Positions 41,677 to 63,512 of a stretch of 64,000 bases of DNA are shown piece after piece. A model generated the notes under the pieces. It saw only the letters and a program-made list of their open reading frames with translations, was not told where the DNA came from and did no database searches. Source of the DNA: a virus (Duplodnaviria; Caudoviricetes); the IMG/VR virus record IMGVR_UViG_3300042891_001963, positions 3,964 through 67,963 of that record. One strand, written 5' to 3'. Every line of letters begins with the position of its first letter. Positions within the stretch are counted from its first letter, which is position 1. Both the position numbers and the translations under genes were made by a program.

Positions 41677-42042
41677 ATGTACCTAAACAATAAAGACTTA
41701 TACATTGAAGTTATCGTATCAAAAGCACAAGGCAAACTAACAAGAAATGCAGAGAAAATGTTAGAACTTCTTGCCAAAAAAACAATTAAAAAAATGAGAT
41801 ATTGGTCTAATGACGATAAGTTAGACTGTTACCAATCAGGACTATTAGATATGTTCCAAAACTGGTATAATTTCAACGAAGATAAATCAGTAAATGCGTT
41901 CGCATACTTTACCGAGGTATTCAAAAGAGGAATCGCTAAGGGTTATAACGAACTTTATAAAAAGAAAGGTGATAACGAACACTTAATCAAATTAATCTCA
42001 ATTGAAGGTTCAAATGATGGACAAGGACTTCACTCACTTTAA
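41677..42042 (+). CDS. gp55: Late-transcription sigma factor (gp55-like)
   Basis: YLNNKDLY...WYNFNEDKSVNAFAYFT. Confidence 0.8.
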   Translation: MYLNNKDLYIEVIVSKAQGKLTRNAEKMLELLAKKTIKKMRYWSNDDKLDCYQSGLLDMFQNWYNFNEDKSVNAFAYFTEVFKRGIAKGYNELYKKKGDNEHLIKLISIEGSNDGQGLHSL

Positions 42043-42178
42043 TATAAAAACATTTGATATAGTTATGACACCAGCATTTAGTGCTAGTATCATACCTATA
42101 ACTATATTTCCTTCAAGACAGAAAAGACGAAAGGAGAAAATTCAAAACATCTTTAAAATAAAAAATCCACTCAATTGA
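42014..42178 (+). CDS. Small ORF missing from the ORF track (54 aa) with RRKEKIQNIF tag
   Basis: MMDKDFTHFNIKTFDIVMTPAFSASIIPITIFPSRQKRRKEKIQNIFKIKNPLN; alternative start 42065. Confidence 0.4.
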   Translation: MMDKDFTHFNIKTFDIVMTPAFSASIIPITIFPSRQKRRKEKIQNIFKIKNPLN

Positions 42179-45899: not shown

Positions 45900-47603
45900 A
45901 TGGCATCTTATAATCAATTTAACGCTGGTTCTGGTCAAAATAATTTCACCTACACTAATAGTGCTGTTGAAAATAAAGGACTTTTTAATAGAATTTTAAG
46001 AGGTTTATCATCTTATGGTATGAACTATGATGATATGATTGTTAGAAATCAAGTTGGTATTGGTATCAATGAAGATCCATTTGCGGCTAGAGGAAATTCA
46101 ATGTATGACTTCTTTTCACAAAGAGCTGTAGCTTCTGTATTAAATAGAAAGTCAATTCCTTATTTAGATAAAGCATATGCTGATAAAAGAAGAATTCTAA
46201 GAGAGTATTCAATTAAAGATGAGATTAGAGATTTTGTTAGTTCTTTAGCAGATGAAAGTATTGTTTATAATGATGAAAGAGATTTCTGTTCACCTAAGCC
46301 ATTAGGTAATGATTATTCACAAGAGATTAAAGATAAGTATCAAGAGTATTTTGAAAAAATTTATAATAAGTTTGGATTCTCTGATAGTATCACGGCTTGG
46401 AATATGATGAAGGATTTCCTTATTGATGGATATATCGCTTTAGAAATTATCTATGATGATAAGAAAAAGAATATTATTGGTTTTAATAGATTAAGACCAG
46501 ATACTTTAGTTCCAGCATTTGAACCAACTATTGGTCACTTATGGATTCAGTTTCCTGAAGATCCTCAATTAAGAAGAATCTTCTTAGATTCTCAGCTAGT
46601 TTATATTTCATATTCTACTCAAAATGATTATTCAGAAACATCTTATGTAGAAGGTTTAATTAAACCTTATAACCAATTAAAAATTCTTGAGCAAACAAGA
46701 GTAATGTTTAACATTATTAATGCTACAGTTTATCAAAAGTTTACTATTCCTATTAAAGGTTTATCAAGACAAAGAGCTGAAGAACAAATTGGTCAATTAA
46801 TCAATGATTATTCAGAAGAAGTTGAATGGGATGATTCATTGGGTACATTAACTATTAATGGTGCTAAACACTTGCCTTATAACAAACAAATTTGGTTTCC
46901 TGAAGGAGATGCTGGTACACCAGCTATGGAATTAGTTTCACCTGAAGGACACAACTTAAATGAATCAGATATGTTGACTTGGTTCTACAATGCTCTAAAA
47001 AGAGCTTCTAAGATTCCTTTTCAACGTTTTGATAAAGAAAATGGTGGTGGTAACTTAATTAATGACTCGGCTGATATGACGAGAGATGAGATTAAATTCT
47101 ACAACTTTATTAATAGATTAAGAGCTAACTTTAAAGAACTTATTGTTAAGCCTTTGAAATTACAAATGTTAATTGAATTTCCTGAGTTAAAAGATGATGA
47201 GGTTTTAGTAAATCAAATTGATATTAACTTTAACTCTAATCAAGTATTTGAAGAGTGGAAAAAATTAAATAACTTAGCTAAGAAAGCCGAAATCTTTGGT
47301 ACATTAGTTGGTGTTATGAATGGTGAGAAACCTTACTTCCATATTGAGTACTTAATTGATAATGTATTTAAATTAACTCCAGAAGAAAAAGCTGAAAATC
47401 AGAAATACTGGGCTAAAGATGCTGCTGGTGTTGCCGCTGGTGGTGCTGAAGCCGGTGCCGCTGGTGGTGCTGAAGGTGGTGAAGGTGGTGACGCCGCGCC
47501 TGCTGAAGGTGGTGAAGCCGCGCCGGAAGCTCAAGCCGCACCTGAGGCACAAGCCGCCCCTGAAACTCCTCCTGCTGAAGGTGGTGAAGAATTTGAATTC
47601 TAA
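45900..47603 (+). CDS. gp20: Portal protein
   Basis: FLIDG, LIKPYNQLKILE, WFP, ASKIPFQRF, TRDEIKF..FINRLR. Confidence 0.92.
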   Translation: MASYNQFNAGSGQNNFTYTNSAVENKGLFNRILRGLSSYGMNYDDMIVRNQVGIGINEDPFAARGNSMYDFFSQRAVASVLNRKSIPYLDKAYADKRRILREYSIKDEIRDFVSSLADESIVYNDERDFCSPKPLGNDYSQEIKDKYQEYFEKIYNKFGFSDSITAWNMMKDFLIDGYIALEIIYDDKKKNIIGFNRLRPDTLVPAFEPTIGHLWIQFPEDPQLRRIFLDSQLVYISYSTQNDYSETSYVEGLIKPYNQLKILEQTRVMFNIINATVYQKFTIPIKGLSRQRAEEQIGQLINDYSEEVEWDDSLGTLTINGAKHLPYNKQIWFPEGDAGTPAMELVSPEGHNLNESDMLTWFYNALKRASKIPFQRFDKENGGGNLINDSADMTRDEIKFYNFINRLRANFKELIVKPLKLQMLIEFPELKDDEVLVNQIDINFNSNQVFEEWKKLNNLAKKAEIFGTLVGVMNGEKPYFHIEYLIDNVFKLTPEEKAENQKYWAKDAAGVAAGGAEAGAAGGAEGGEGGDAAPAEGGEAAPEAQAAPEAQAAPETPPAEGGEEFEF

Positions 47604-48097: not shown

Positions 48098-49975
48098 TTA
48101 CAATAAAGTAAAATCTATTTGTTTTCTTTCTAAGTCTACTGACTTAACTACAACTTTAAGAGGATCTCCTAATCTGATTTTATCACCATTTTCACTTGTT
48201 ATGGTGTAGTTGTTTGTATCAGCTGACCATTTACCTTCAAGTGATTGATATCTAACCATACCTTCACATTTACTTTCAACCAATTCAACATACATACCCC
48301 AATCAGTTACACCAGAAACGATGCCATCAAATACTTTTCCAATCTTATCTAAAAGATATTCAGCTTGTTTGTATTTAATTGAATCTCTTTGAGCTTTAGC
48401 CGCTACTAATTCTCTAGCAGAACACCATTTAGCTTGTTCTTCAATCTTACCAGGATTACCTTGAGATTTCTTATCTAAGAAATCAAGTAAAATTCTATGT
48501 GTGATTAAATCAGGATATCTACGAATAGGTGAAGTAAAGTGAGAATAGTGAGTAAATCCTAAACCATAGTGACCTATGTTCTTGATTGTATAAGTAGCTT
48601 TAGACATACATCTAGTAACTAAGGTTTCAATCATATTTTCCTCAGGAGTTTCTTTAATCTCTTTTAATAAATTGTTTAAAGTCTTTTTAATCTCAGTGGA
48701 ATCATCATATATTTCTATATCATATCCAAAAGTTTTACAAACACCAACTAAAGCATTTAACTTTTCCATATTTGGAGTATCGTGAACTCTATACACATTT
48801 GCCCAACTAGCATCTGATAAAGTTTTAGCAACTGACTTATTAGCCAATAACATAAACTCTTCAATTAACTTGTTAGCTTCTTTTTGTTCTTTGAAATAAA
48901 CACCAATTGGTTTCTTATTATCTGGTGCTAATTTGAATCTAACTTCAATACCACCCATCTCAATAGAACCTTCTTTGATTCTTTTCTTTCTAATCTTTTT
49001 TGCTAAAGTATCAAGTAATCTAATTTCAGTTGAATAATCACCATCACTTCCTTCAATAATTTCTTGAGCTTCTTCATAAGCATATCTTCTATCAGAGTGA
49101 ATAACTGTTTTACCTTGCCAAGTATTTAAGATATTACCATCTGAGTCTAAAGTAAAGATAACAGAGAAAGCCAATCTATCTTCGTGTGGTTTCAATGAAC
49201 ATATACCATTACTTAAACGTTCTGGTAACATTGGTACACATCTATCAACTAAATACACTGATGTGGCTCTTTTGAAAGCTTCATCATCTAATTTAGTTCC
49301 TGGTTTAACATAGTGACCTACGTCAGCAATGTGAACTCCTACTTCAATTTTATTATTAACAATATTGACTGAGAGAGCATCATCAAAATCTTTAGCATCA
49401 ACTGGGTCAATAGTTAAAGTAGTGATACCTCTCATATCTTTACGAGATTTAATTTCTTTTTCACTAATAACTTCGGGTACTAAGAAAGATTCATTAATAA
49501 CATCTTGTGGAAATTCAATAGGCAATCCATACTCAATCATAATTGAGTTCATTTCTGTGTTATTATCTCCAGAATCTCCTAAAACTCTTGTGATTTTTCC
49601 TTGTGGTGATTTTGAGTCTTCCCACTTTACTAATTCTACTACAACCTTTTGGTCGTGTTCTGCTTTTAATCCACCTTTAATATAAAAGTCAACAGGTACT
49701 TTATTACTATCCGGAACAACAAATATTGTTTTCTTTCCTATTTGTACTCTACCGACATACTCAGTCTTAAATCTTGAAACAACTTCAATGACTTTTCCTT
49801 CTAGTTTTCTTTCAGCTTGAAATATTTGAACTTTTACTTTATCTAAGTGTAATGAGTTAGCTGTGTGTTTCTTGTAAATGAAGATTTCTATATCTTCTAC
49901 TGCTAATGATGCGTTACCGTTTGTTGAGAACTCAATCTGACCTTCGTAAACATCACCTTCTTTTAATTTTATCAT
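48098..49975 (-). CDS. rnr: Ribonuclease R (RNB family)
   Basis: TIDPVDAKDFDDALS, HIADV, EEFMLLAN, HFTSPIRRYPDL, C-terminal S1. Confidence 0.95.
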   Translation of the reverse strand: MIKLKEGDVYEGQIEFSTNGNASLAVEDIEIFIYKKHTANSLHLDKVKVQIFQAERKLEGKVIEVVSRFKTEYVGRVQIGKKTIFVVPDSNKVPVDFYIKGGLKAEHDQKVVVELVKWEDSKSPQGKITRVLGDSGDNNTEMNSIMIEYGLPIEFPQDVINESFLVPEVISEKEIKSRKDMRGITTLTIDPVDAKDFDDALSVNIVNNKIEVGVHIADVGHYVKPGTKLDDEAFKRATSVYLVDRCVPMLPERLSNGICSLKPHEDRLAFSVIFTLDSDGNILNTWQGKTVIHSDRRYAYEEAQEIIEGSDGDYSTEIRLLDTLAKKIRKKRIKEGSIEMGGIEVRFKLAPDNKKPIGVYFKEQKEANKLIEEFMLLANKSVAKTLSDASWANVYRVHDTPNMEKLNALVGVCKTFGYDIEIYDDSTEIKKTLNNLLKEIKETPEENMIETLVTRCMSKATYTIKNIGHYGLGFTHYSHFTSPIRRYPDLITHRILLDFLDKKSQGNPGKIEEQAKWCSARELVAAKAQRDSIKYKQAEYLLDKIGKVFDGIVSGVTDWGMYVELVESKCEGMVRYQSLEGKWSADTNNYTITSENGDKIRLGDPLKVVVKSVDLERKQIDFTLL

Positions 49976-50557: not shown

Positions 50558-52684
50558 ATGAAACCAGTATTAATTATAGAAAATTCACAAAACTCTCTTA
50601 TTAGAGAGAATAATGGTTCTACTAAGAAGGATTATATTTTAGGTGGTACATTCACAGAGTTCGGTGTTAAAAACCGTAATGAAAGAATTTATACTGCTGA
50701 TAAATTTCTTCCAGCTTTAGATGAATTAAATGAAAGAATGAGCAGTTTAGGCGTTGTTTATGGTGAGTTTGATCACCCAGATGTTTTTGACACATCTCTT
50801 TCAAGAGCATCACACATTATCACAAAAGCTAATTATGTAAAAGAATCAAATTTAGTTAATGGTGAAATTAGATTACTAAATACTTATTGGGGTAAAGAAG
50901 CAAAGGCATTAGTTGATGACGGATGTCCTGTTTTCGTTTCTTCAAGAGCTGCTGGTATCACTGAATCAGATGGTACTGTTTCATTGAAAAAATTATTTAC
51001 ATATGATATCGTTGCTGATCCGGGTTTTGCTTCTGCTAAAATGTCGGTTAAGAATATCAACGAATCATTAGGATATAATGAAAACTCTAACTTTAGGATA
51101 TATGAAATGTCCGATGAGTCCAAAATAAATCAACTATTTGATATGAACAAAAATGAATTTGTAACAAAGCAACAGTTAACTGAGTATTCACAATATTTAG
51201 TTAAAGAATTAGCTTCTACACAGAAAGAAGTTAAAGGTGCTCTTACTAAAGGTAACTTGTCTCCTAAGAAAATGGAGCAACTTTTAGAGTACTATGATGA
51301 GTTAAATTCAACTAATGCTCAAGTCGTTAAGTATTTAGATTATTTGGCTGAAAAAGTTCAAATTATGGTTAATGAAAACAAGTCTTTAAAGGAAACTACT
51401 GACAAACTTATTAAACACAATGACTATTTAGCTGAAAGTTTAGAAAAAGCTGTTAACTACTCTGAATATTTAGCTGAGAATTTAGACAAAAATATTGAGT
51501 ATTCTGAATATTTAGCAGAAAACTTAGATAAAAACATTTCTTATGCTGAGTATATCGCTGAGAACTTAGATAAGAATATTTCTTATTCTGAATATTTAGC
51601 AGAAAACTTAGATAAAAACATTGAGTACTCTGAGTACTTAGCTGAAAATCTTGATAAGAATATTGCTTACTCAGAATACATCGCTGAAAACTTAGATAAA
51701 AACATTGCTTACTCTGAATACATTGCTGAGCATGTTGATAACTCAATTGCTTACTCTGAATATTTAGCTGAACATGTTGAAGGTAACATTGCTTACTCTG
51801 AATACATTGCTGAACATTTAGATGATAATATTGCTTACTCAGAATACATTGCTGAGAATCTTGATAAATCAATTAACTACCAAGGAATGATTGTTGAAAA
51901 ATTAAATTCTGGTAAATTAAACGAATCAATGAATGAAAACGAAGAAGCTTTCCCTTCATTACAAGCCGCAGGTTTTGAAAATATGGAAGAGGAAGAAGAA
52001 TCTTATAGTTCTGAAGAAGAAAATAATCAAGAAGAATACAATGGTATTGCTCCAGCTCACGAAGAAGAAGCATATAATAAAGAAGAAGATGAAGACTGCG
52101 GTCCATCTACAACTGAAGAAGAAAATGAAGAAGAAGCTCATGATTATGAAGTAACTGGTAACAGTGATTCTGAATTATCTGAGTCAATCAACAAATTAAT
52201 AGAAGAAGCTAAAAAACGTAAAGTTTCTGAATCAAGTGACTTGAATTTCTTAAAATTCTTAAACAAGTCACAAGTAGATAGCTACTACGCTTTGTCTGAT
52301 GAAGACCAAGAGGCTGTTAAATTTCACATAAGCGAAAGAAATTACTTCACATCTAAAGATGTGTTAAGCCTAATCGCAGAAGCGCTATCATCTAAGAATG
52401 AATCTCTTGAAGAAAGAGTAATCAGATTAATGCCTGAAAACACTAAGGCTATCTGGAGTCAAATGAATGAATCTGCTAAAAAATCTATCTTATCACAAGC
52501 TAGACTTTACCCAGCTGAAGTTTTAATGACTGAATCACAAGTTGAGCATTTCTGGTTAACTAGAAAGCTTAAAACAAACGAGTCTGTAACTAAAAAGTTA
52601 GTAGCTCATGAAAGTTTAATACAAGAAGATAAACTTTCTGATAATGACGTTACTGCAATTATGGAAAGATTCAAAAACATTTAA
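50558..52684 (+). CDS. gp21: Prohead protease fused to scaffold/core domain
   Basis: KNRNERIY, GEFDHP, VSSRAAG, TYDIVADPGF; long coiled-coil and acidic C-terminal part. Confidence 0.9.
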   Translation: MKPVLIIENSQNSLIRENNGSTKKDYILGGTFTEFGVKNRNERIYTADKFLPALDELNERMSSLGVVYGEFDHPDVFDTSLSRASHIITKANYVKESNLVNGEIRLLNTYWGKEAKALVDDGCPVFVSSRAAGITESDGTVSLKKLFTYDIVADPGFASAKMSVKNINESLGYNENSNFRIYEMSDESKINQLFDMNKNEFVTKQQLTEYSQYLVKELASTQKEVKGALTKGNLSPKKMEQLLEYYDELNSTNAQVVKYLDYLAEKVQIMVNENKSLKETTDKLIKHNDYLAESLEKAVNYSEYLAENLDKNIEYSEYLAENLDKNISYAEYIAENLDKNISYSEYLAENLDKNIEYSEYLAENLDKNIAYSEYIAENLDKNIAYSEYIAEHVDNSIAYSEYLAEHVEGNIAYSEYIAEHLDDNIAYSEYIAENLDKSINYQGMIVEKLNSGKLNESMNENEEAFPSLQAAGFENMEEEEESYSSEEENNQEEYNGIAPAHEEEAYNKEEDEDCGPSTTEEENEEEAHDYEVTGNSDSELSESINKLIEEAKKRKVSESSDLNFLKFLNKSQVDSYYALSDEDQEAVKFHISERNYFTSKDVLSLIAEALSSKNESLEERVIRLMPENTKAIWSQMNESAKKSILSQARLYPAEVLMTESQVEHFWLTRKLKTNESVTKKLVAHESLIQEDKLSDNDVTAIMERFKNI
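51458..51877 (+). repeat. Ten 42-nt coding tandem repeats (YSEY[LI]AE[NH]LDKNI-type)
   Basis: Visible in the translation; synonymous variation between units. Confidence 0.95.
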
Positions 52685-52765: not shown

Positions 52766-54436
52766 ATGTCACACATTAGAATAGACAAATCAAAAGCGGT
52801 TAAGAAATGGGCTCCAGTTTTGGAAAACATGGGTGTAACTGAGGATAGAGTTGAATGGATGTCAGAAATGGCTGAGTATCACTCAATCAATGAAAATGCG
52901 TATGTAAACGCAGCAAACGTAGCAGGTATGGGATCAGTTGTCGCTGCTCAACCATCATCACTATCTGGTTATTTAGGTGGTGCTACAATCGCTAACGGTC
53001 AAGTTGGATCAGGCGATGTTGGTCAAAACTTATTACCAGTTGCTATGAAAATCGCAGCTCAAACAATCGGTTTAGATTTAGTAGCTGTAAAACCAACTCC
53101 AGGTCCAAAAATTGATTTACTTTATATTGATTTCCAATATGATGATATTGATACAACAACAAACGAAAGACCTCAAGTATTCAAATTAGCTACAACTACC
53201 CAAGATGCTGCTATTTACACTGCATTAGACAATGCTTTACCTGCAGGTGCTACTTTAAACCAAGGTGGTATCCAAGGTGGTAGACTTTGGTCAAAAATCA
53301 ACAGTAACTCTTCACCAATGACATCTACTGAACCACCTGTAAAAACTAACCAAGTTGAGTTCTTAGGTTTCTCTCGTATTGATAATTTACCAATATTCAG
53401 AGCTTATAGACAAAGTAACTCTACTTCTATTGGTTCTTACAACAACTGGTTTGATGCTTCATTAAATACATTTGGACCTACTGTTTCAATGGTTTCTCAA
53501 ATTACAAACGTAGCTGGTCTTACTGTTTCTGGTACTCCTACTATTACTTTAGTATCTGCTTTAGAAGATCATATCCCAGGTTTCTCTGCAAACTGGACAT
53601 CTGCTGCTTCTGGTCAAGCTGCTGGTCAATACCCAATGGGTCGTTTGGCTGATGATCAATCATATGCTGGTGTTATCGGACCAAAAATTTCTTCTAAAAC
53701 TGTTGCAGTTGGTACTATTGAAGTATCTTCAGCTCTTAGAAGAACTGAAATTGAAGATATCAAAGCTAACACAGGTATGGATATCGTTCAAAAAATGGAG
53801 TCTATCCTTGTAAACGAATTATCTCAAACAATTTCTAAACAAATTGTTGCTAAGATTTTTGAAATGGGTGCTCTTAATGCTTCTACCGCTCCTATCAGAA
53901 CAGGTACTGAGACAATCTTTGACTTAAACACTAACTATGCTACTACTGCTGGTAATGTTGGTGGTGAAACTACTCACGCTGTTCAACGTAAGTTAATCAC
54001 TAAGATTGCTCACGCTTCTAACTACATCGCTACTGAAGGTCGTGTAGGTCCTGCTCAATACCTTATCACAAACGGAGGTCTTGCTGCTGCTTTACAAGAT
54101 ATCGCTGGTTACACAATTAACCCAGTTAAATCTAAATTAAACGGACAAGGTCAATTATACCCTGTAGGTTCAATCGGAGACATCTCTATCTATGTAGATC
54201 CATATATGAGATATAACGATAACAGAATCGTGTTAGGTCGTAAGAACAACCCTGACCAACCAGGTATCATTTTCGTACCTTACTTAATGGCTCAGTCTAT
54301 CTCAGTTATCTCTGAAGCTACATTCGCTCCAAGAATGTTGTTACGTTCAAGATACGCTGTAACTGAAGTTGGTTGGTATCCACAAAAACAATATATGACT
54401 ATTACAGTTACTGACGCTGCTCAGTTATTAAACTAA
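52766..54436 (+). CDS. gp23: Major capsid protein
   Basis: KKWAPVLE, INE cleavage-like site, DLVAVKP, IYVDPY, FVPY, TFAPRMLLRSRYA; follows gp21. Confidence 0.92.
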   Translation: MSHIRIDKSKAVKKWAPVLENMGVTEDRVEWMSEMAEYHSINENAYVNAANVAGMGSVVAAQPSSLSGYLGGATIANGQVGSGDVGQNLLPVAMKIAAQTIGLDLVAVKPTPGPKIDLLYIDFQYDDIDTTTNERPQVFKLATTTQDAAIYTALDNALPAGATLNQGGIQGGRLWSKINSNSSPMTSTEPPVKTNQVEFLGFSRIDNLPIFRAYRQSNSTSIGSYNNWFDASLNTFGPTVSMVSQITNVAGLTVSGTPTITLVSALEDHIPGFSANWTSAASGQAAGQYPMGRLADDQSYAGVIGPKISSKTVAVGTIEVSSALRRTEIEDIKANTGMDIVQKMESILVNELSQTISKQIVAKIFEMGALNASTAPIRTGTETIFDLNTNYATTAGNVGGETTHAVQRKLITKIAHASNYIATEGRVGPAQYLITNGGLAAALQDIAGYTINPVKSKLNGQGQLYPVGSIGDISIYVDPYMRYNDNRIVLGRKNNPDQPGIIFVPYLMAQSISVISEATFAPRMLLRSRYAVTEVGWYPQKQYMTITVTDAAQLLN

Positions 54437-54456
54437 TAGTTTTATTGTAAATATTG

Positions 54457-54483
54457 AAAAAAGACCCTTTATGGGTCTTTTTT
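54457..54483 (+). terminator. Intrinsic terminator after MCP
   Basis: aaaaagaccc...gggtcttttt. Confidence 0.8.
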
Positions 54484-54516
54484 CTTTTTAAACAATTTCT
54501 AATTAATATATACAGT

Positions 54517-55221
54517 ATGAAATATTTACTAATTGAAAATAGTGGTGATGATTCTGAAAATCGTGAATACGGAGATATAATTGTTAAATACTTTGATGAT
54601 TTGACTGATGTTTATTCACATATCTGTAATGAACTAATATATGAGGATTTAGACATAGAAGATTTTAAGAATGATCCTTATAGTAATGTTGAAGAAAGAG
54701 TTGAAGAACATGGATCTAGTTATTATATTTTTGAAGATGAGAATGAATTGATATCATTAAAAATAGGTAATATAAAAGATGGTGATTGGGATAAATTCAC
54801 AGATTTTTGTCTAGGTTTTATAAAAGAAAATAAAATAATGAACTATAAATCATTTAACGAATCTAAAAAAGAAAAATTTCCTAACATACAGAAGTTAGAA
54901 ATAGAAGGATTTATTGTTTATGTTGGTAAAGATGCTAAATCTAACGATCATTTGACTTTTAATGTTGCTGACAAAGAAGATATTTGGATGCATGTTAAAG
55001 GTGTTCCTGGTAGTCACGTTGTTATTCGTGTTAGAGAGAATTTACCAACAGAAACTGTTATTAAATCTGCTGCGGAATTGGCTAAAAAGAATAGTAAAGC
55101 ATCAAAAGATGATAAAGCAACTGTTGTTTATTGTCAAAGTAGATTTGTTAAGAAAGAATCAGGTATGAATGATGGTCAGGTTAAAGTGGATTATACAAAT
55201 TCCTATCAAATTGTAGTTTAA
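54517..55221 (+). CDS. Acidic domain fused to NFACT-R (DUF814; RqcH/Rqc2 C-terminal) RNA-binding domain
   Basis: VGKDAKSNDHLTF...DIWMHVKGVPGSHVVI...AAELA; internal MNYKSFNES at 54838. Confidence 0.8.
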   Translation: MKYLLIENSGDDSENREYGDIIVKYFDDLTDVYSHICNELIYEDLDIEDFKNDPYSNVEERVEEHGSSYYIFEDENELISLKIGNIKDGDWDKFTDFCLGFIKENKIMNYKSFNESKKEKFPNIQKLEIEGFIVYVGKDAKSNDHLTFNVADKEDIWMHVKGVPGSHVVIRVRENLPTETVIKSAAELAKKNSKASKDDKATVVYCQSRFVKKESGMNDGQVKVDYTNSYQIVV

Positions 55222-55257: not shown

Positions 55258-56631
55258 ATGGCAGATAATAAAGAACCTATAAGAATTAAATTTTCTGAAG
55301 AACTTCATGATTTATTAAAAGTTTTAGAAGATGAGAATAGCTATATAGCATTTGAAATGCTTTGGTTGAACGAGCCTAATTCTAAATATCACAATGGTCT
55401 AGGAATTAGTGATGTTAATATATCTAAAACAAAATCTTGTTTAGATGTTACGTCTACAATTAATGGTGTTGTTGATGGTAAAGTTCACCCTATGAAAATA
55501 GAAAACTTTCTTAAATTTTACTTTAAGAATTACTTTCAAACTTCTGATATTCAAGAATTCATTGAACAGTATAATATATTAGCAGGTGGTGGTTCGGTTG
55601 AAAGTATTGCTGTTAATAGAATTACACCAGAACCTTTTAGTTACAATCCTAAAGATGTTAGAAGTACATTTATTTCATTGGTTACTAAGACATATCCTCA
55701 CGGACATGAAGAAGAAGTAATGGCTTTTATGCCTAAATTAGAAAAAGATATTGTAGGTAACTATTATAAAATCATTGGTGAGAATCCAACAACTATGTTT
55801 ACATCTCACTTAGATACTGCTGATAGAAAACAAGGTACTACTAAACTTCTTTCTAAGAAAGATGAAAATGGTGATGAAATTATTTATACTGATGGTTCTA
55901 CTATATTAGGTGCTGATGATAAGTCAGGTGTTGCTGTTATGCTTTATATGATGGCTCATAATGTACCAGGTCTTTATTACTTCTTTATGGGAGAAGAAAG
56001 AGGTGGTATTGGTTCAGGTTTATTATCTTCGGTTTATGAAAAAGTAGAATATGTTAAGAATATTAAGAGATGTGTTTCTTTTGATAGAAGAGATGTTAAA
56101 TCTGTCATTACTTCACAATTAGGTAGAACTTGTTGTTCTGATGAATTTGGAACTGCTTTGGCTAAACAATATAATGCAAATGGTCTTAATTTATCATTAG
56201 ATCCTACAGGTATATACACAGATTCTGCTTCATTTTTAGAACAAATTGCTGAATGTACTAACATATCAGTTGGTTATTATAATGAACATACTGGTAAAGA
56301 AAGACAAAATATTAACTTTCTGGAAAGACTTGCTAAGGCTAGTGTTCAAGTTAATTGGAATTCATTACCAACAGTTAGAAAAGTAGGAATTGATGAAGAA
56401 ACTATTAGAAAATATGGTAAGTTAATTAATGACTTAAAAGCAACACCATTTGGTATTGATATTAAAATAGCATCTGATAGAGCTACTACTTTTATTCAAT
56501 GTGATTTAGAAGAAGGTTATATTGATGAGACTTATGAAGCTTTAACAACACTACAATTCTTATTGAATAAACACAAAGTAAGTCAAAAAGTATATTTTGA
56601 TGGAGAATACATAAAAATAGATTTATTATAA
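55258..56631 (+). CDS. M28/M20-family metallopeptidase
   Basis: SHLDT, LGADDKSG, GEERGGIG, SFDR, TD, NEH. Confidence 0.8.
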   Translation: MADNKEPIRIKFSEELHDLLKVLEDENSYIAFEMLWLNEPNSKYHNGLGISDVNISKTKSCLDVTSTINGVVDGKVHPMKIENFLKFYFKNYFQTSDIQEFIEQYNILAGGGSVESIAVNRITPEPFSYNPKDVRSTFISLVTKTYPHGHEEEVMAFMPKLEKDIVGNYYKIIGENPTTMFTSHLDTADRKQGTTKLLSKKDENGDEIIYTDGSTILGADDKSGVAVMLYMMAHNVPGLYYFFMGEERGGIGSGLLSSVYEKVEYVKNIKRCVSFDRRDVKSVITSQLGRTCCSDEFGTALAKQYNANGLNLSLDPTGIYTDSASFLEQIAECTNISVGYYNEHTGKERQNINFLERLAKASVQVNWNSLPTVRKVGIDEETIRKYGKLINDLKATPFGIDIKIASDRATTFIQCDLEEGYIDETYEALTTLQFLLNKHKVSQKVYFDGEYIKIDLL

Positions 56632-57154: not shown

Positions 57155-57533
57155 GGGGATGTTTTAGAATTGATTTGCGGAGTGGTGGTGATTATGCGGG
57201 TATCGGGTTGTCGTATGACCGATTAATAAATTAGATGGTAAAGTCGTAAATGGCAAAACAAATGAAGTAGCTAGCAATGAAGATTTAGTATTTGCGCTAC
57301 AAAACAACATGATCTTGGTAGAAGATCTAGCAACTGTCTAACAACAGTTACTATCAAAAAATTCTCCAACTTGTTTCACACAAGAATAAAATAGTGAAAT
57401 GGTTTTTTGTTACTTATTAGAGTTTCTCAAAAAAAGTAAAAAGTTTGTAAGTTTATAAAAATTTACTACGCCTGTGAATGAATAATTATTAACAACCGAA
57501 AAAGACACGTTGGGCAGTACAACGTCATCTCCA
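57155..57533 (+). ncRNA. ssrA: tmRNA (one-piece)
   Basis: Acceptor stem GGGGATG/CATCTCC-A with G3.U pair; T-arm ACGTTG-GGCAGTA-CAACGT; tag ORF 57252-57341. Confidence 0.88.
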
Positions 57534-57539
57534 CAAGAA

Positions 57540-57562
57540 CAAAGACCAGTAATGGTCTTTTG
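57540..57562 (+). terminator. Hairpin after tmRNA
   Basis: caaaagacca-gtaa-tggtcttttg. Confidence 0.65.
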
Positions 57563-57608
57563 TTATTTTAAAGAGGTAAACTTTATTAATTTGATTGATA
57601 TAATAACT

Positions 57609-58127
57609 ATGATTGATAAATTTGAAGGTCGTTATAGATTCTTATCCAATTTCTATCCGTGTAAGATAGAACACCAAGGTATTAAATACCCGTCAGTTGA
57701 GAACTTTTATGTGGCTATGAAAGTAAATGACCAACAATTAATTAATGGTACTTACTATACGCCAGGTGATTTTCGTGAAATGATTGCTAGAATTACCAAT
57801 CCTGCTGAGGTTAAAAAACTTGGTTCTAAAGTTAAATTAAGAACGGGTTGGGATGAAAAGAAATTAGAAGTTATGAATTGGGCTGTACGTCAAAAATTCA
57901 AAGAAGAAACTTTAGCTGAATTATTATTATCTACTGAAGACCAAGAGTTAATTGAAGGTACGTGGTGGCATGATAAATTTTGGGGTATATGTGTTTGTAC
58001 AAAATGTGCTGGTAAAGGTGAGAATCATTTAGGTAAGATTCTTATGGAAGTAAGAGAAGAATTAAAATTATCAAATCAAAAACCTTCAATTCAAGATATA
58101 ATAAAAGACAAAAATAAATTAAATTAA
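57609..58127 (+). CDS. NADAR (YbiA-like) family protein
   Basis: FLSNFY, SVENFY, KKLG, W, QKF, LLST, LIEG, D.FWG, GENHLGKILMEVR. Confidence 0.9.
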   Translation: MIDKFEGRYRFLSNFYPCKIEHQGIKYPSVENFYVAMKVNDQQLINGTYYTPGDFREMIARITNPAEVKKLGSKVKLRTGWDEKKLEVMNWAVRQKFKEETLAELLLSTEDQELIEGTWWHDKFWGICVCTKCAGKGENHLGKILMEVREELKLSNQKPSIQDIIKDKNKLN

Positions 58128-58129
58128 TA

Positions 58130-59113
58130 ATGAGTGTAATTTCATATTTCGGAGGTAAGTCCTCAAATGTATTCATTGAGTTTATTAACTCAAAAATCCC
58201 TAAAGATGGTTCAATCAAAACCTACTTAGAACCATTCTCTGGCTCAATGGGAACGTATATGGACGACCCAAACTTAAAGTTTGATGTAGTTGTCTATAAC
58301 GATAAAAATCGTCACCAGGTGAATCTATATAAGTGCGCTTCTCAACCAGAAGAATTTGTTAAGTATTTAGAAGCTTTGAAAAGAACTTTACTTCATACAG
58401 ATGAAACTGATCCATTGAAGAAGTGGGATTTCTATAAAGAGATTTACAAAAGATATATTAAGAATGATTTCTTAGATAATATGGATTTTGAGATTGGTGA
58501 TTTCAAAAAAGCGGCTATTTATGCTTTCTTAATTACATCAGCTCACAATTCGGTTTATCCTCGTGGTGCTGGTTTCAATGGTTATAAGAAAGATAAAGAT
58601 CGTTTGAAATTAGAGGTTCTTATTGACAAGTTGAAAAAGAACAAATACACAGCTAAGTTATCTACTATTACTGACTTCTATAATATTGACTTTGAGGAAT
58701 TGATTAATCAATATGATTCTGAAGATACTTATTTGTATTTGGATCCTCCTTATCACAGACCTGATGAGAATGGTGATGATGATGCTAAGAGATTATCTTG
58801 GTATGGTGCTGATAAAGAAGGAATGTTTGGACCTGCTTCACATAGAAGATTGTTAGATTTGATTAAGAAATCTAAATCTCGTTGGTCATTATCATATTAC
58901 TATTTCCCTTTGTTAGAGGAATTGTTACCAAGAGACCAATACATTTGGACTGAAAAAGAAGTATTTAGAAGTTCAGCTCAAGGTGGTAATAACTCTGAAG
59001 GTAAAGGTGAACAAGCTAAAGGTGTAGAGTTATTGATTTTAAATTACGATCCAGTTACTGGTAAAAAATTAAACATTCAAGATGGAGTATCCGCTACCGA
59101 GACAGAGATATAA
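58130..59113 (+). CDS. dam: Dam-like (D12 class) DNA adenine methyltransferase
   Basis: YFGGKS, EPFSG, YND, YLDPPY. Confidence 0.85.
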   Translation: MSVISYFGGKSSNVFIEFINSKIPKDGSIKTYLEPFSGSMGTYMDDPNLKFDVVVYNDKNRHQVNLYKCASQPEEFVKYLEALKRTLLHTDETDPLKKWDFYKEIYKRYIKNDFLDNMDFEIGDFKKAAIYAFLITSAHNSVYPRGAGFNGYKKDKDRLKLEVLIDKLKKNKYTAKLSTITDFYNIDFEELINQYDSEDTYLYLDPPYHRPDENGDDDAKRLSWYGADKEGMFGPASHRRLLDLIKKSKSRWSLSYYYFPLLEELLPRDQYIWTEKEVFRSSAQGGNNSEGKGEQAKGVELLILNYDPVTGKKLNIQDGVSATETEI

Positions 59114-60569: not shown

Positions 60570-60692
60570 TTTATAGAATTACTTTTTTGTATATATTAAT
60601 TATCAAATCTCATTTATCTCATTTTAGAGAGTCGGTTTTTTATATATACCTATGATAAAAACAAAAATCAAAAAAGAGTGTATAATAAAGAT

Positions 60693-62033
60693 ATGAGTAA
60701 ATTAGTAACGTTAAACGGAAATAACGACCAAGAGCTTCTAAGTTCAATTTTTGATAATGAAATAATTGTATTTGAAGATATTCAAGGGTCTAAAATATGG
60801 ATAAATTGGGATGGTAAAGAATTTACTATTAAACCAAAATCAATGAGTAGTGAAAAACTTAATCTTGTTGATTTGGCTATCCAAAACTATTATAATCCAG
60901 GTATTAAATATTTAGAATCATTGGATGTTAGAATTAAATCACTATTGAATAAAAAATGGTGGTTTTGTTTTGAGTACTTTCCAGATGAGCAACCAGCTAA
61001 TATTGAATACACAAGAGTTCCTAAGAATCATTTGGTTTTAACTGCTATTAATAAAGGTGGTAAGTATGACTTTAGTGTTGAGGAATTAGATGAGTATGCT
61101 AGATTATTTGATGTTGATATGTTACCGATTGTTTTCCAAGGTAAATTAACTGAAAGAATGATTGAGGCTATTAAATACTTTATTAATACAAGTGAAGAAG
61201 ACTTAGAATATGTATTTGGTGAAAAGTCATTTGCTTTTTTCTTTTATAGAATATTAAATCCAAGTTCTACTAACTCATTTCTAATGAAAGATGAAGATTA
61301 TCAATCAAATCTTGAAAAACTTATTGTAAGAACTAAAAATGGAGATATTTCGTTTGAGATATTAAACCCTTTATATAAAAGAATAAGTGATAGTAACTCA
61401 ACAGATTTTGTTGAAATATACACACTTATCTTAGTTAACTTCTTAAATTTCTGTCAATCATTTAACTTAGATGAAATTAAATTAAAAGGTGAGAAAAGAG
61501 ATGAAGTTTACATTTATTTAATGTCAAAATTATTTAATGTTTATGTTTCTGAAGTTAAACAAGATTTATTAGATTTTGACTTTATAGTTCCTGAGTTCTT
61601 TGATAAAGAAAAGTTCAAAATTAATACAGAGTTAATTCCTAATAAATTGACTAAAGATTATATTAAAGAGTCAGATAAGTTAGAATATATTTTCAAAGTT
61701 ATTTTAGGCTCATTTAACAAGAAAAGAAAGAAAGCTATTGGTGTATTCACTGATAATACTGTAATTCTATTTAATACTTTTGTTAGTGATATTAATAATT
61801 ATATTGAGAAGTATCTTAATAAGGTTCATGAAGTTGAATTAACAAGAGCCGGATTACTTGACTTTGGTGATTTCTTTGAGATTCAATATGATCAAGATGG
61901 TGAAGGTGAAGTTTACCCTGATGTTTACTCGGAGTTTGAAAAAGGAACACCTGAACAAAAGAAGAAAAAAGGTAAAGGTGGTAAAGGATTACCAATGCCT
62001 GATGAAGAACCATCTAAAACCCCTACTAAGTAA
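60693..62033 (+). CDS. RNA-ligase-fold protein lacking motif-I lysine
   Basis: VFEDIQGSKI vs EKxDGxN; FEYF motif III; P.VFQG. Confidence 0.5.
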   Translation: MSKLVTLNGNNDQELLSSIFDNEIIVFEDIQGSKIWINWDGKEFTIKPKSMSSEKLNLVDLAIQNYYNPGIKYLESLDVRIKSLLNKKWWFCFEYFPDEQPANIEYTRVPKNHLVLTAINKGGKYDFSVEELDEYARLFDVDMLPIVFQGKLTERMIEAIKYFINTSEEDLEYVFGEKSFAFFFYRILNPSSTNSFLMKDEDYQSNLEKLIVRTKNGDISFEILNPLYKRISDSNSTDFVEIYTLILVNFLNFCQSFNLDEIKLKGEKRDEVYIYLMSKLFNVYVSEVKQDLLDFDFIVPEFFDKEKFKINTELIPNKLTKDYIKESDKLEYIFKVILGSFNKKRKKAIGVFTDNTVILFNTFVSDINNYIEKYLNKVHEVELTRAGLLDFGDFFEIQYDQDGEGEVYPDVYSEFEKGTPEQKKKKGKGGKGLPMPDEEPSKTPTK

Positions 62034-62245
62034 TGAATTCAATTGATGTTAGTATTAGAAGTGTTCAAGTTGAAGCTAAAACAAGACCGATTAAAGCTAC
62101 TTGGACTCGTGAATTGATAGCTGATTTAGATAGTTATCATAATATTGATATTGAAAAGGAACTTTCTCATCTTTTGAAAGAAGAGCTTCGTAAACAACGA
62201 GCTTCTAGTAGAAAAAAATCAATCAATAAAATCTTCCAAAATTAA
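62033..62245 (+). CDS. 70-aa fragment of a gp23-type capsid protein with C-terminal tag
   Basis: VEAKTRPIKATWTRELIADLDSYHNIDIEKELS matches gp23 EAKSRQLKA.YS.ELAQDL...H..D...ELS. Confidence 0.7.
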   Translation: MNSIDVSIRSVQVEAKTRPIKATWTRELIADLDSYHNIDIEKELSHLLKEELRKQRASSRKKSINKIFQN

Positions 62246-62276
62246 GAACATAAACTTGGAATTTCATATAATTTAT

Positions 62277-63512
62277 ATGACAGTTTCAAGTGTAATTAAG
62301 CTCAGTGATATAGAGTCTTATTCTTCAATTAAGAAGAATTTAGAGGGTAAGAAATGTAGCTTACAGTTTCTACCGGTTTCGTTGGAAACAATTTCAAAAC
62401 AAAAGAATTTTATTTATAAAGGTCAAAAGTTAAAGTCAGCTTATTTGATTGATATTATTCATAATTTAATTCTAAAGTATTATTTCAAAAAAGAAAACAA
62501 ATTTCATTTAATGTCTCCTATTTTAAAGGAGAAATATGGTTATTTATATAACTATTATATGGATTTTCTTACAGAGAATAAAATAATTATTCTTTTGTCA
62601 AAACATCAAAAGGGTAAAAGTGCTAGAGTTTATGCTATTAATGAATATATTTTAAGAGGTACTATCATTAGATTCAACAATAGTGATAAAGTCTTATTGA
62701 AGAAATATAAGGCAAAAGTATCTCAGATAATAGAAGATAAGTCAGAGAACTCTTTAATTGATAATGATATTAAGATTAAATTGGTTGATGATTTATTTAA
62801 GATTCAAATTGAATTTGACCGGTCAATATTTTACTTAGACTCATTAAAAGATAATGATGTTGATATCTATAATAGAAATAAATATTCAGTTGAGTGTATT
62901 AATGACAAACATATCTTTTATCACTTTGATAGTTATGGTAGAATGCACACTAACTTTACCATCTTAAAATCATTTATTAGAAAGAACTGTTTATTAATCA
63001 ATGGTGAAGAAACCGCTGAGATTGATATTAAGAATTCACAACCTCTTTTCTTAACTAAATTGATTCAAGACTCTGGTAGTAAATGGGTGAATCAAGAAGA
63101 GTTTGAGTTATTTAGAAATCTTACTATAAATGGTACTTACTATAACTACATAATGGATCATCTTGGAACAAAAGATAGAGGTATGGTTAAAGAATTAACA
63201 TATAAAGTACTCTTTGGTAGAAATGGTGTTAATAGCAAAGCAGATAAGATTTTTAGTAGTCTTTTTCCTACAATACATTATTTTATCAAATTGTATAAAA
63301 AAGAACATGGTGATTATAAAGTATTGGCTTATGAACTACAAAAATCAGAAAGCAATCTTATCTTTAACAAGATAATCAGGCAAATAATGACACTTTATCC
63401 TGAAATAAATTTAGTCACAGTTCATGATAGTATTATTATGCAAAAGTCTTATAGAGATTCAGTTTGGGCTATATTTCAAACTAAACTTTATGAAGAATTT
63501 GGACTTATTTAA
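62277..63512 (+). CDS. Family-A polymerase-like protein (palm only, no exonuclease)
   Basis: GRMHT, EIDIKNSQP (motif A), R...K....LFG (motif B-like), LQKSES, VHDSI (motif C). Confidence 0.55.
   Translation: MTVSSVIKLSDIESYSSIKKNLEGKKCSLQFLPVSLETISKQKNFIYKGQKLKSAYLIDIIHNLILKYYFKKENKFHLMSPILKEKYGYLYNYYMDFLTENKIIILLSKHQKGKSARVYAINEYILRGTIIRFNNSDKVLLKKYKAKVSQIIEDKSENSLIDNDIKIKLVDDLFKIQIEFDRSIFYLDSLKDNDVDIYNRNKYSVECINDKHIFYHFDSYGRMHTNFTILKSFIRKNCLLINGEETAEIDIKNSQPLFLTKLIQDSGSKWVNQEEFELFRNLTINGTYYNYIMDHLGTKDRGMVKELTYKVLFGRNGVNSKADKIFSSLFPTIHYFIKLYKKEHGDYKVLAYELQKSESNLIFNKIIRQIMTLYPEINLVTVHDSIIMQKSYRDSVWAIFQTKLYEEFGLI

What the first reader, a model, noticed from the sequence alone, without database searches (positions are those of the whole stretch)
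62033..62245. Stand-alone 70-aa capsid fragment closer to canonical gp23 than to this phage's own capsid
Seen: IDVSIRSVQVEAKTRPIKATWTRELIADLDSYHNIDIEKELSHLLKEE aligns without gaps to the T4-type gp23 segment recalled as MGFRIDKQVIEAKSRQLKAAYSIELAQDLRAVHGMDADAELSGILATE. The resident MCP equivalent (KISSKTVAVGTIEVSSALRRTEIEDIKANTGMDIVQKMESIL) is far more diverged. The ORF is intact and translationally coupled (TAATG), and has its own tag instead of the rest of the HK97 fold. Inference: it was captured from another phage and kept as a decoy or dominant-negative inhibitor, not as a decaying duplicate.
Basis: partly seen in the sequence, partly recalled or inferred. Interest (0 to 1): 0.8.

Follow-up and report, generated by a model that had tools for sequence, protein, structure and literature searches.

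The report
Tagged capsid-fragment mini-gene in megaphage
A giant uncultured phage keeps a small, conserved gene that joins one piece of an ordinary T4-type capsid protein to a short basic tail shared with other mini-genes built from head-protein pieces; I found no description of such a set, and its job, probably molecular mimicry, is untested.

Summary
The 70-codon ORF at 62033-62245 is real and intact, and its ATG overlaps the stop of the upstream gene (TAATG). Residues 1-52 match Pfam Gp23 (E 1.4e-12) and align without gaps to T4 gp23 254-299. They are 47-52% identical to nine ordinary T4-type capsid proteins but only 27% identical to the window's own capsid protein. The window belongs to a megaphage of roughly 0.5 Mb.

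The gene is not debris. It has 100 stand-alone homologues, 58 of them exactly 70 aa, and synteny is kept in 11 loci. Its dN/dS is mostly below 1 but about ten times that of its neighbours. The tail RKKSINKIF is invariant through synonymous changes.

The tail is a shared tag. Two near-complete relatives each carry at least 10-12 mini-genes ending in it, including three more gp23 pieces and probable protease and portal pieces. The window holds a second one (42002-42178).

Recent capture is not shown; the family is old. Function is untested. I favour mimicry of a capsomer-contact element (0.35) over the head-cargo, immune-decoy, clamp and membrane readings. Four literature searches found no description.

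This scan had already reported such tagged fragment genes on other megaphage DNA. I reached the same result before reading those notes, and it agrees.

The parts
62033..62245 (+). 70-aa tagged capsid-fragment mini-gene (stop codon included)
   Evidence: ORF list. Pfam Gp23 E 1.4e-12. 100 stand-alone homologues. Intact in 11 of 11 related loci.
62033..62188 (+). Residues 1-52: gp23-like part, equivalent to T4 gp23 about 247-299. It comprises an extended N-terminal stretch, a short acidic helix and the start of the spine helix.
   Evidence: The AlphaFold2 model has no regular structure in residues 1-25 and helices at 26-36 and 40-68. [quoted passage not shown]
62189..62242 (+). Residues 53-70: basic linker and shared tail. 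RKKSINKIF is residues 60-68, nt 62210-62236.
   Evidence: Ten invariant columns (R56, R60-F68) in 31 sequences. The exact RKKSINKIF is present in 96 of 100 homologues. Synonymous codon differences occur under unchanged residues. The same motif ends other mini-ORFs.
62031..62035 (+). TAATG stop/start overlap with the upstream gene
   Evidence: The same overlap is seen in 9 of 11 related loci (L001-L007, L010, L011). In L008 and L009 the upstream gene lies elsewhere.
60678..62033 (+). Upstream 451-aa ORF, RNA-ligase-like. This is a lead only.
   Evidence: No Pfam, PHROG, NCBIfam or PADLOC hit. The nearest named ESM Atlas clusters carry PF09414 RNA_ligase (scores 0.93-0.95). dN/dS 0.02-0.11.
62277..63512 (+). 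Downstream 411-aa ORF (418 aa if read from the TTG at 62256), family-A polymerase-palm-like. This is a lead only. It follows the mini-gene in 10 of the 10 loci that reach that far.
   Evidence: The nearest Atlas cluster is automatically named 'putative DNA-directed DNA polymerase family A palm domain-containing protein' (score 0.97). dN/dS 0.04-0.16.
42002..42178 (+). Second tail-tagged mini-ORF of the window (58 aa from TTG; a conserved ATG lies at 42014). It ends ...RRKEKIQNIFKIKNPLN. Its N-terminal part weakly resembles the resident prohead protease.
   Evidence: Motif scan. BLASTP against the window's protease at residues 148-164 gives E 0.019. The G001 orthologue matches its own protease at 42% over 31 aa, E 8e-4 in a small database. 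Orthologues are present in G001 and G002.
52766..54436 (+). Resident major capsid protein (556 aa), a divergent gp23 type
   Evidence: Pfam Gp23 E 1.4e-29. 73% identical to the capsid gene of a 634,780-bp uncultured phage record.

Best explanation
SHOWN. The ORF is a real gene under selection in a megaphage of roughly 0.5 Mb. Its product has two parts. Residues 1-52 copy one contiguous piece of a canonical T4-type major capsid protein. That piece comprises a basic stretch, which would be a P-domain beta-strand in gp23, then a short acidic helix, then the first half of the spine helix. Residues 53-70 are a basic linker and the tail RKKSINKIF. The tail is a shared tag. It ends at least 10-12 mini-proteins per genome in this phage lineage, and several of those are other pieces of gp23 or, probably, of the head protease and portal.

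INFERRED. The protein works as a molecular mimic. The capsid piece offers the charged strand-plus-helix element that, in T4, holds neighbouring capsomers together near the quasi-threefold axes. It could therefore occupy the matching surface on T4-type capsid subunits. The invariant tail docks the mimic to one common, still unknown reader. The piece is canonical in spelling while the phage's own capsid protein has diverged at this element, so the most likely target is the head assembly of rival T4-type phages in the same cell. The megaphage's own shell would be spared.
For: Homology and position.

Real and selected:
- 100 of 101 candidates are stand-alone homologues of 42-70 aa. 58 are exactly 70 aa and 22 are 63 aa. 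96 of 100 carry PF07068 and 96 of 100 carry the exact tail.
- At least 47 further cluster representatives of 56-74 aa share the same plan.
- The ORF is intact in 11 of 11 viral loci, in conserved synteny.
- Of 36 pairwise dN/dS values, 33 lie between 0.16 and 0.67, one is 1.04 and two are 1.94. The two high values come from pairs with dS of only 0.04. Flanking genes give 0.02-0.16 at similar dS.
- Tail residues stay unchanged under synonymous changes.

Shared tag:
- In G001 the strict motif occurs in 9 short ORFs within 8 residues of the C-terminus, against 0 in the reversed genome.
- Tails of paralogues use different codons and have no common downstream DNA.
- Tagged pieces match gp23 profile positions 154-194 (E 8.6e-7), 303-376 (E 3.4e-5) and 222-259 (E 0.01; the G002 copy gives 6.5e-5 in a search of that genome alone).
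- Others match the head protease (PHROG 207, E 4.9e-4) and the portal (Pfam E 0.0034, PHROG 213 E 0.0038).
- G002 carries 12 clear examples.

Conserved positions: the nearly invariant residues of the capsid part are V13, T23, W24, T25, E27, D31 and L32. They fall in the would-be strand and the short acidic helix.

T4 precedent: PMC9546572 (passages read) states that T4 capsomers associate near the quasi-threefold axes through a short negatively charged P-domain helix and a positively charged P-domain beta-strand region. These contacts persist through expansion.

Model: residues 1-25 have no regular structure on their own, as expected for a strand that needs a partner.

Resident protein: it is only 27% identical over this piece.

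Presence in an RNA library: a 575-nt contig of a metatranscriptome run covers 61768-62336 with no gap in the ORF. This shows presence in an RNA library, not transcription.
Against: - No binding, target or host is known.
- Mapping the fragment's basic stretch and acidic helix onto the T4 contact elements is my inference. The paper's figure is not held and no residue numbers for those elements were read.
- The tenfold faster protein evolution could be relaxed constraint on a mere carrier for the tail, not an arms race.
- The family is old and vertically kept, which does not need a rival.
- Several tagged mini-proteins have no recognisable parent.
- A looser form of the tail also ends full-size proteins: 7 of 355 long genes in G001 and 13 of 471 in G002. 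The tag may therefore be a general address label unrelated to interference.
- The protease and portal assignments are weak, and genome-level searches did not recover them.
Confidence: 0.35

Rival explanations
1. Own-head accessory or cargo. The tail is an address that brings proteins into or onto the megaphage's own prohead, in the way encapsulin cargo-loading peptides, P22 scaffold C-termini or T4 capsid-targeting sequences do (recalled knowledge). The capsid, protease and portal pieces would be assembly modulators, or passengers delivered with the DNA.
For: All tagged pieces with a recognisable parent come from head-morphogenesis proteins. The tail is invariant while the resident capsid protein is also highly conserved, at 90-95% among loci. 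Two tandem full-size proteins with similar N-termini (MKYLK...) end in tail-like motifs. A basic helix at a C-terminus suits an electrostatic docking role.
Against: The capsid piece resembles canonical gp23, not the resident protein it would have to fit. The mini-gene lies among nucleic-acid enzyme genes, not head genes. No virion proteome exists.
Confidence: 0.2
2. Host-immunity decoy. The pieces copy conserved surfaces of hallmark phage proteins that bacterial pattern-recognition defences read, such as capsid, portal and terminase sensors. They would occupy the sensors without activating them.
For: The pieces are the most conserved segments of hallmark proteins. The capsid part evolves fast while the tag stays invariant, as in conflict genes. 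Direct sensing of capsid proteins by defences is established; the listing includes PMC9712102, of which I saw only the title and the start of the abstract.
Against: No PADLOC or anti-defence family hit. A piece that copies an activating surface might trigger the sensor instead of blocking it. The known T4 capsid trigger region (Gol) is a different part of gp23. No sensor of this host is known.
Confidence: 0.15
3. Sliding-clamp docking peptide. The tail is this lineage's version of the C-terminal clamp-binding motif of T4 gp43, gp55 and gp33. The mini-proteins would compete for, or recruit things to, the clamp and so tune replication, late transcription or packaging.
For: T4 gp55 ends ...SPSLDFLYEAND and gp43 ends ...KASLDFLFG. 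The spacing S-h-x-x-h-F is the same as in SINKIF. The window's second tagged mini-ORF overlaps the end of a gp55-like late sigma gene (PHROG 234, E 4.3e-6). A clamp loader is encoded at 38194-39156.
Against: No clamp gene was found with PF02916, PF09116, PHROG 223, the T4 gp45 protein or PF02767. The gp55-like ORF itself ends ...GLHSL, and the split PolB piece has no such tail. The mini-ORF beside gp55 resembles the protease, not the gp55 C-terminus.
Confidence: 0.07
4. Membrane tether. The tail is a short cationic amphipathic helix like the MinD membrane-targeting sequence. It would hold the pieces at the inner membrane, where T4-type proheads start to assemble (recalled).
For: The B. subtilis MinD helix is printed as KGMMAKIKSFFGVRS in PMC13537761 (passage). 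It shares the K-I-K-x-h-F pattern with tails such as NKIKKIF. PMC8155659 (passages) states that the MinD sequence is a transplantable C-terminal module. The tail is helical in the model.
Against: The hydrophobic moment of the tails is ordinary, at the median 66th percentile of 11-residue windows of the phage's own proteins. Mean hydrophobicity is -0.46, against +0.31 for the MinD helix. The tail has only three hydrophobic residues.
Confidence: 0.08
5. Gene debris. The ORF is a leftover of a broken second capsid gene, or a chance ORF with no function.
For: It is short and covers only 52 of 376 profile positions. Its dN/dS is well above that of its neighbours.
Against: It is intact in 11 of 11 loci at dS up to 1.4. 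Its boundaries are fixed (58 of 100 homologues are exactly 70 aa). The tail is invariant under synonymous change. At least 47 further clusters share the same plan.
Confidence: 0.02

Closest known systems
T4 gp23 major capsid protein and its vertex paralogue gp24 (Pfam PF07068, HK97 fold)
   Same: Residues 1-52 are homologous to T4 gp23 about 247-299, with a family score above Pfam's cut-off.
   Different: Only 52 of 376 profile positions are present. The A domain, the rest of the P domain and the insertion domain are all missing. A foreign basic tail follows. It cannot form a shell by itself.
T4 Gol peptide, a short region of gp23 that activates the Lit protease on EF-Tu
   Same: Both are short stretches of gp23 with a biological effect of their own.
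   Different: Gol lies in the first quarter of gp23 (PMC3014915 section 37, passage). This piece lies at residues 247-299 of 521. Gol is part of the full protein and is not a separate gene.
C-terminal clamp-binding tails of T4 gp43 and gp55
   Same: Both are a short motif at the very C-terminus, shared by unrelated proteins of one phage, with spacing S-h-x-x-h-F.
   Different: The tail here is basic, whereas the T4 tails sit in acidic surroundings. No clamp gene was found. The tail is not present on the polymerase or the late sigma factor of these phages.
MinD-type C-terminal amphipathic membrane-targeting helix
   Same: Both are short, basic, helical, C-terminal and transplantable, with a K-I-K-x-h-F pattern.
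   Different: The tail here is much less hydrophobic and its hydrophobic moment is ordinary.
Address peptides of HK97-fold shells: encapsulin cargo-loading peptides, the T4 capsid-targeting sequence and the P22 scaffold C-terminus (all recalled, not tested here)
   Same: One short peptide shared by many unrelated proteins and read by one partner.
   Different: The T4 signal is N-terminal and is cleaved off. No binding to the resident capsid protein could be shown or excluded. The cargo here consists of pieces of the head proteins themselves.

Membership tests
Pfam Gp23 / T4-type major capsid protein | Significant match to the family profile | tested here: met
   48.1 bits against a cut-off of 24.4, E 1.4e-12. 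hhalign of the family against full-length gp23 gives probability 98.9%.
Pfam Gp23 / T4-type major capsid protein | Complete HK97 fold with A domain and full P domain, able to build a shell | tested here: not met
   Only profile positions 131-182 of 376 are covered. The protein is 70 aa and the model is two helices plus an unstructured N-terminus. It is therefore a homologous fragment, not a capsid protein.
T4 Gol peptide (Lit activator) | Derives from the Gol region in the first quarter of gp23 | tested here: not met
   The piece maps to T4 gp23 254-299 of 521. Gol lies in the first quarter (PMC3014915).
T4-type clamp-binding C-terminal tail | The same motif is present on the phage's DNA polymerase and late sigma factor | tested here: not met
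   The gp55-like ORF ends ...GLHSL. The G001 PolB piece ends ...IKQLEAEL.
T4-type clamp-binding C-terminal tail | Binds a sliding clamp encoded by the phage | not testable with these tools
   No clamp gene was found by five searches.
MinD-type membrane-targeting amphipathic helix | Amphipathic helix with a clear hydrophobic face | tested here: inconclusive
   The tail is helical in the model. Its hydrophobic moment is at the median 66th percentile and its mean hydrophobicity is -0.46, against +0.31 for B. subtilis MinD.
Pseudogene or gene remnant | Frame disruptions, variable boundaries, neutral evolution | tested here: not met
   Intact in 11 of 11 loci. Lengths are 70 aa in 58 and 63 aa in 22 of 100 homologues. 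dN/dS is 0.16-0.67 in 33 of 36 pairs. The tail is invariant.
Tail-tagged fragment mini-proteins of megaphages (undescribed set; known only from this scan's notes) | A piece of a core phage protein joined to a short tail shared by other mini-genes of the same genome | tested here: met
   Enrichment against the reversed genome is 9 versus 0.

The most novel reading that the evidence does not exclude
Megaphages carry a 'bait-and-tag' armoury. This is a set of mini-proteins, each presenting a different conserved surface of a hallmark phage protein (capsid, protease, portal and perhaps others), all joined to one docking tail read by a single partner. With it the phage would poison the assembly machines of rival T4-type phages, or blind host pattern-recognition immunity, while its own diverged proteins escape. 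The baits evolve fast and the tag stays fixed.
Probability: 0.3. Interest if true: 0.9.

Novelty: categorically new. Interest (0 to 1): 0.75.

Why it matters
If the reading holds, this is a way of making inhibitors or decoys that I have not seen described for phages. The phage cuts out the contact element of a conserved viral protein and attaches a common address label.

It would explain part of the large dark proteome of megaphages. It would also give a rule for finding such genes: a short ORF, a core-protein piece and a lineage-specific tail. Finally, it would supply ready-made peptide probes for capsid assembly and for capsid-sensing immunity.

Even without a known function, the set shows that short ORFs matching capsid profiles in metagenomes can be genes under selection and need not be broken capsid genes. 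That matters for g23-based diversity surveys and for annotation.

Tried and rejected
I took context from the search for related loci and the genome search instead.

2. The 'longer' search with the family alignment found nothing at E <= 0.001 among 8000 word-sharing candidates. Full-length relatives came instead.

I did not repeat it with subsets.

4. hhalign laid the whole family, tail included, on T4 gp23 247-314. I first read the tail as the end of the spine helix. I dropped that reading because the paralogue L092 1426-1686 has a full canonical spine helix followed by the tail, and because residues 53-70 match no gp23.

5. Complex prediction of the mini-protein with the resident capsid protein returned no verdict (score 0.00, controls not run). 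This is not evidence either way.

6. Foldseek of the model against the PDB found no match.

7. I considered a frameshift joining the gp55-like ORF to the second mini-ORF. I dropped it because the slippery site is not kept in G001, an ATG is kept, and the piece resembles the protease.

8. The clamp searches were all empty.

9. By eye, three further tagged mini-ORFs look like a PolB motif B, a helicase Walker B and a terminase Walker A piece (consensus motifs recalled). No HMM or tblastn search supports this, so I make no claim.

10. Genome-level searches with Peptidase_S77 and Portal_T4 found only the full-length genes. The protease and portal pieces therefore rest on weak per-protein hits.

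11. The broadened tail pattern has a high background, with 8 and 7 hits in the reversed genomes. I used the strict pattern and the position test.

12. The 258-aa ORF as the missing rest of a split capsid protein: hhalign to gp23 gives only 30.9% probability over the A-domain core. I did not pursue it.

13. Read laying returned contigs only. They cannot show transcription, strand or ends. Runs X3 and X4 held next to none of the sampled words.

14. NC_055915 1-50000 was fetched and not used.
Full report
WHAT IS THERE

The window is 29.7% G+C. It is bases 3964-67963 of a 67,963-bp viral record that CheckV rates 12% complete, which implies a genome of roughly half a megabase. It carries a T4-type head module:
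- portal, 45900-47603 (Portal_T4, E 5.3e-58)
- a protease fused to a long C-terminal part, 50558-52684
- major capsid protein, 52766-54436 (Gp23, E 1.4e-29)

The capsid protein is 73% and 72% identical to those of two uncultured phage records of 634,780 and 642,428 bp, and 53% identical to that of a 735,411-bp record. It is under 30% identical to cultured phages.

The ORF of the finding is at 62033-62245 (70 aa). Its ATG overlaps the TAA of the upstream 451-aa ORF.

Residues 1-52 match Pfam Gp23 positions 131-182 of 376 (E 1.4e-12, 48 bits, cut-off 24.4) and PHROG 138. Residues 8-53 align without a gap to T4 gp23 254-299.

In one alignment, residues 1-52 are 47-52% identical to nine canonical-type gp23 proteins, 37% identical to T4 gp23 and 27% identical to the resident capsid protein. 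BLASTP against the resident protein finds nothing.

In the phage collection, the only hits are full-length capsid genes. I checked one of them, which is a 544-aa ORF. In IMG/VR, 65 further loci match residues 1-55 at 40-53% identity. All 65 lie in long frames: 49 are closed at both ends with stop-to-stop lengths of 235-671 aa (median 597), and 16 are cut by the locus end at 326 aa or more.

IT IS A GENE, NOT DEBRIS

A search restricted to proteins of 38-123 aa returned 100 homologues from 101 candidates, with identity running from 96% down to 50%. Of these, 96 carry PF07068, 58 are exactly 70 aa, 22 are 63 aa (a start seven codons further in), and 96 carry the exact tail RKKSINKIF.

A profile search of 1.84 billion cluster representatives gave 754 hits at E <= 0.001. 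Among the best 150, I aligned 47 stand-alone proteins of 56-74 aa that share the same plan.

Eleven viral loci hold the gene, intact in all of them:
- In 9 of 11 it overlaps the stop of the 451-aa gene.
- In the other two (L008, L009) that gene has moved away, but the mini-gene still precedes the 411-aa gene.
- The 411-aa gene follows the mini-gene in all 10 loci that extend far enough.

Pairwise dN/dS of the mini-gene is 0.16-0.67 in 33 of 36 pairs. One pair gives 1.04. Two pairs (window against L001 and L003) give 1.94, but their dS is only 0.04, against 0.46-0.58 in the flanks, which points to a recent recombination tract. The flanking genes give 0.02-0.16 at similar dS. The protein therefore evolves about ten times faster than its neighbours yet stays under constraint.

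THE TAIL IS A SHARED TAG

The ten invariant columns of the close family are R56 and R60-F68. Several of these codons differ synonymously between loci.

hhalign stretched the family over T4 gp23 247-314. However, a paralogue in a 385-kb relative (L092 1426-1686, gp23 positions 154-194, E 8.6e-7) has a full canonical spine helix and only then ...RRMNSINKIF. Residues 53-70 of the window's protein match no gp23.

I scanned the two near-complete relatives: G001 (385,333 bp, 95% complete) and G002 (476,236 bp, 97% complete).

G001 results:
- The strict motif hits 14 of 1994 ORFs. Nine of these are 110 aa or shorter with the motif within 8 residues of the end.
- The reversed genome gives 1 hit in 1929 ORFs and none of that short C-terminal kind.
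- The tails use different codons and share no downstream DNA, so this is a protein motif and not a DNA repeat.

The tagged mini-ORFs include:
- gp23 positions 303-376 (E 3.4e-5; here the motif sits in a loop)
- gp23 positions 222-259 (E 0.01; the G002 copy gives 6.5e-5)
- gp23 positions 154-194
- a tandem, overlapping array of a gp23 piece, a head-protease piece (PHROG 207, E 4.9e-4) and a portal piece (Pfam E 0.0034; PHROG 213 E 0.0038)

G002 has 12 clear examples, among them another tandem array of three.

The window itself has a second example at 42002-42178. It overlaps the end of a gp55-like late sigma gene, and its N-terminal part weakly resembles the resident protease.

A looser core motif ends 19 of 486 genes in G001 (5.8 expected from its internal frequency) and 25 of 667 in G002 (7.6 expected). 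The reversed genomes show no such excess. Seven and 13 of these, respectively, are genes longer than 110 aa.

WHAT THE CAPSID PIECE IS

The AlphaFold2 model (mean pLDDT 81) has no regular structure in residues 1-25, a short helix at 26-36 and a long helix at 40-68.

[quoted passage not shown] Capsomers associate near the quasi-threefold axes through a short negatively charged P-domain helix and a positively charged P-domain beta-strand region, and these contacts persist through expansion (PMC9546572, passages read).

The fragment's basic stretch (K16, R18, K21) and its short acidic helix (E27, D31, D33) look like these two elements. The family's nearly invariant residues (V13, T23-T25, E27, D31, L32) fall in them. 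This mapping is my inference, because the figure is not held.

The piece is not the Gol region, which lies in the first quarter of gp23 (PMC3014915, section 37).

HOW IT MOST LIKELY WORKS

I favour a molecular mimic (0.35). The capsid piece would occupy the capsomer-contact surface of T4-type capsid subunits, and the tail would dock it to a common reader.

In favour:
- The resident protein has diverged at this element, so a rival T4-type phage is the most economical target.
- Fast-evolving baits with a fixed tag fit a conflict gene.

Against:
- No binding, target or host is known.
- The fast evolution may be relaxed constraint.
- Some tagged proteins have no recognisable parent.
- The tag also ends full-size proteins.

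The rivals are head cargo or accessory (0.2), host-sensor decoy (0.15), membrane tether (0.08), clamp docking (0.07) and debris (0.02). The evidence for and against each is in the Rival explanations section. The rest of the probability is unassigned.

Two points on the tail itself:
- The clamp idea rests on the spacing shared with the T4 tails SLDFLY and SLDFLF and on the neighbourhood of gp55. Against it, no clamp was found and neither gp55 nor PolB carries the tail.
- The membrane idea rests on likeness to the B. subtilis MinD helix. Against it, the tail is far less hydrophobic.

ORIGIN

Capture from another phage is not shown. The family is old and syntenic. At least one megaphage (a 484-kb record) still has a canonical spelling of this segment in its full capsid protein, 52% identical to the piece. 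An old duplication inside the megaphage radiation is therefore as good an explanation as a capture.

EXPRESSION

One metatranscriptome run holds a 575-nt contig (depth 12.9, 44 differences, no gap) spanning 61768-62336. It runs from the end of the upstream gene, across the mini-gene, into the next gene. DNA in the library is not excluded.

NOVELTY

Four literature searches listed nothing on capsid-fragment genes, tagged mini-proteins or dominant-negative capsid fragments in phages. I saw only listings and abstract starts.

After my own analysis I read this scan's earlier notes. Follow-up agents had reported the same kind of tagged fragment genes in other megaphage records, with other tag spellings in other lineages and no known function. 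Those are AI notes, not independent evidence, and my results agree with them.

Noticed in passing
window 41677-42042 (+) and 42002-42178 (+): A gp55-like late sigma gene (PHROG 234, E 4.3e-6) is only 121 aa and covers profile positions 10-105 of 181. The same short form occurs in 3 of 3 records. A tail-tagged 58-aa ORF overlaps its end in another frame.
   Followed up: partly
window 60678-62033 (+): The 451-aa ORF has no family hit in four HMM libraries. The nearest named Atlas clusters carry the RNA ligase domain PF09414. The usual lysine of ligase motif I is not obvious by eye.
   Followed up: partly
window 62277-63512 (+): The 411-aa ORF has, by eye, family-A polymerase motifs (DIKNSQP, K..YKVLFG, VHDS). 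Its nearest Atlas cluster is named as a family A polymerase palm domain protein. It is a minimal polymerase-like protein always next to the mini-gene.
   Followed up: partly
L094 1378-2157 (-), L093, L090, L096; just beyond the window's end: A 257-262-aa ORF weakly matches gp23 positions 185-305 (E 6e-4 to 4e-5). It is very conserved (the 120 best hits are all 84% identical or more) and lies 2-3.5 kb from the mini-gene in 5 of 5 records. It may be a cut-down capsid paralogue. hhalign gives only 31% probability.
   Followed up: partly
L006 5088-5840 (+), L011 4566-5315 (+): ORFs of about 250 aa are inserted between two small conserved genes in some relatives only. They show weak similarity to the resident capsid protein (34-43% over about 58 aa) and to gp23 positions 168-301 (E 0.01).
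   Followed up: no
window 62033-62300 compared with L001 and L003: Synonymous divergence drops to 0.04 inside the mini-gene, against 0.46-0.58 in both flanking genes. The 3' two-thirds and the spacer are nearly identical. This looks like a short recent recombination tract.
   Followed up: partly
G001 100317-102017 (locus L128): The family-B DNA polymerase match covers only profile positions 18-155 in a 566-aa ORF. The polymerase gene therefore appears split. The rest was not located.
   Followed up: no
G001 379915-380715 and 380715-381905 (locus L121): Two tandem paralogues (266 and 396 aa) both start MKYLK and end in tail-like motifs...SIRRMSLNQIYRN and ...SIKKINLNKLYKD. G002 has counterparts.
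   Followed up: no
window 42207-43301 (-), 48098-49975 (-), 54454-55221 (+), 55258-56631 (+), 57510-58127 (+), 58130-59113 (+): Accessory genes around the head module: glutamine synthetase-like, RNase II/R (RNB, E 4e-109), an NFACT-R domain protein, a partial peptidase T-like match, NADAR, and a D12 adenine methyltransferase.
   Followed up: no
window 61768-62336: A metatranscriptome contig of a related strain (about 92% identical) bridges three genes. The run is labelled marine, while another weak holder and a name attached to one homologue point to fresh water. The habitat is not settled.
   Followed up: no
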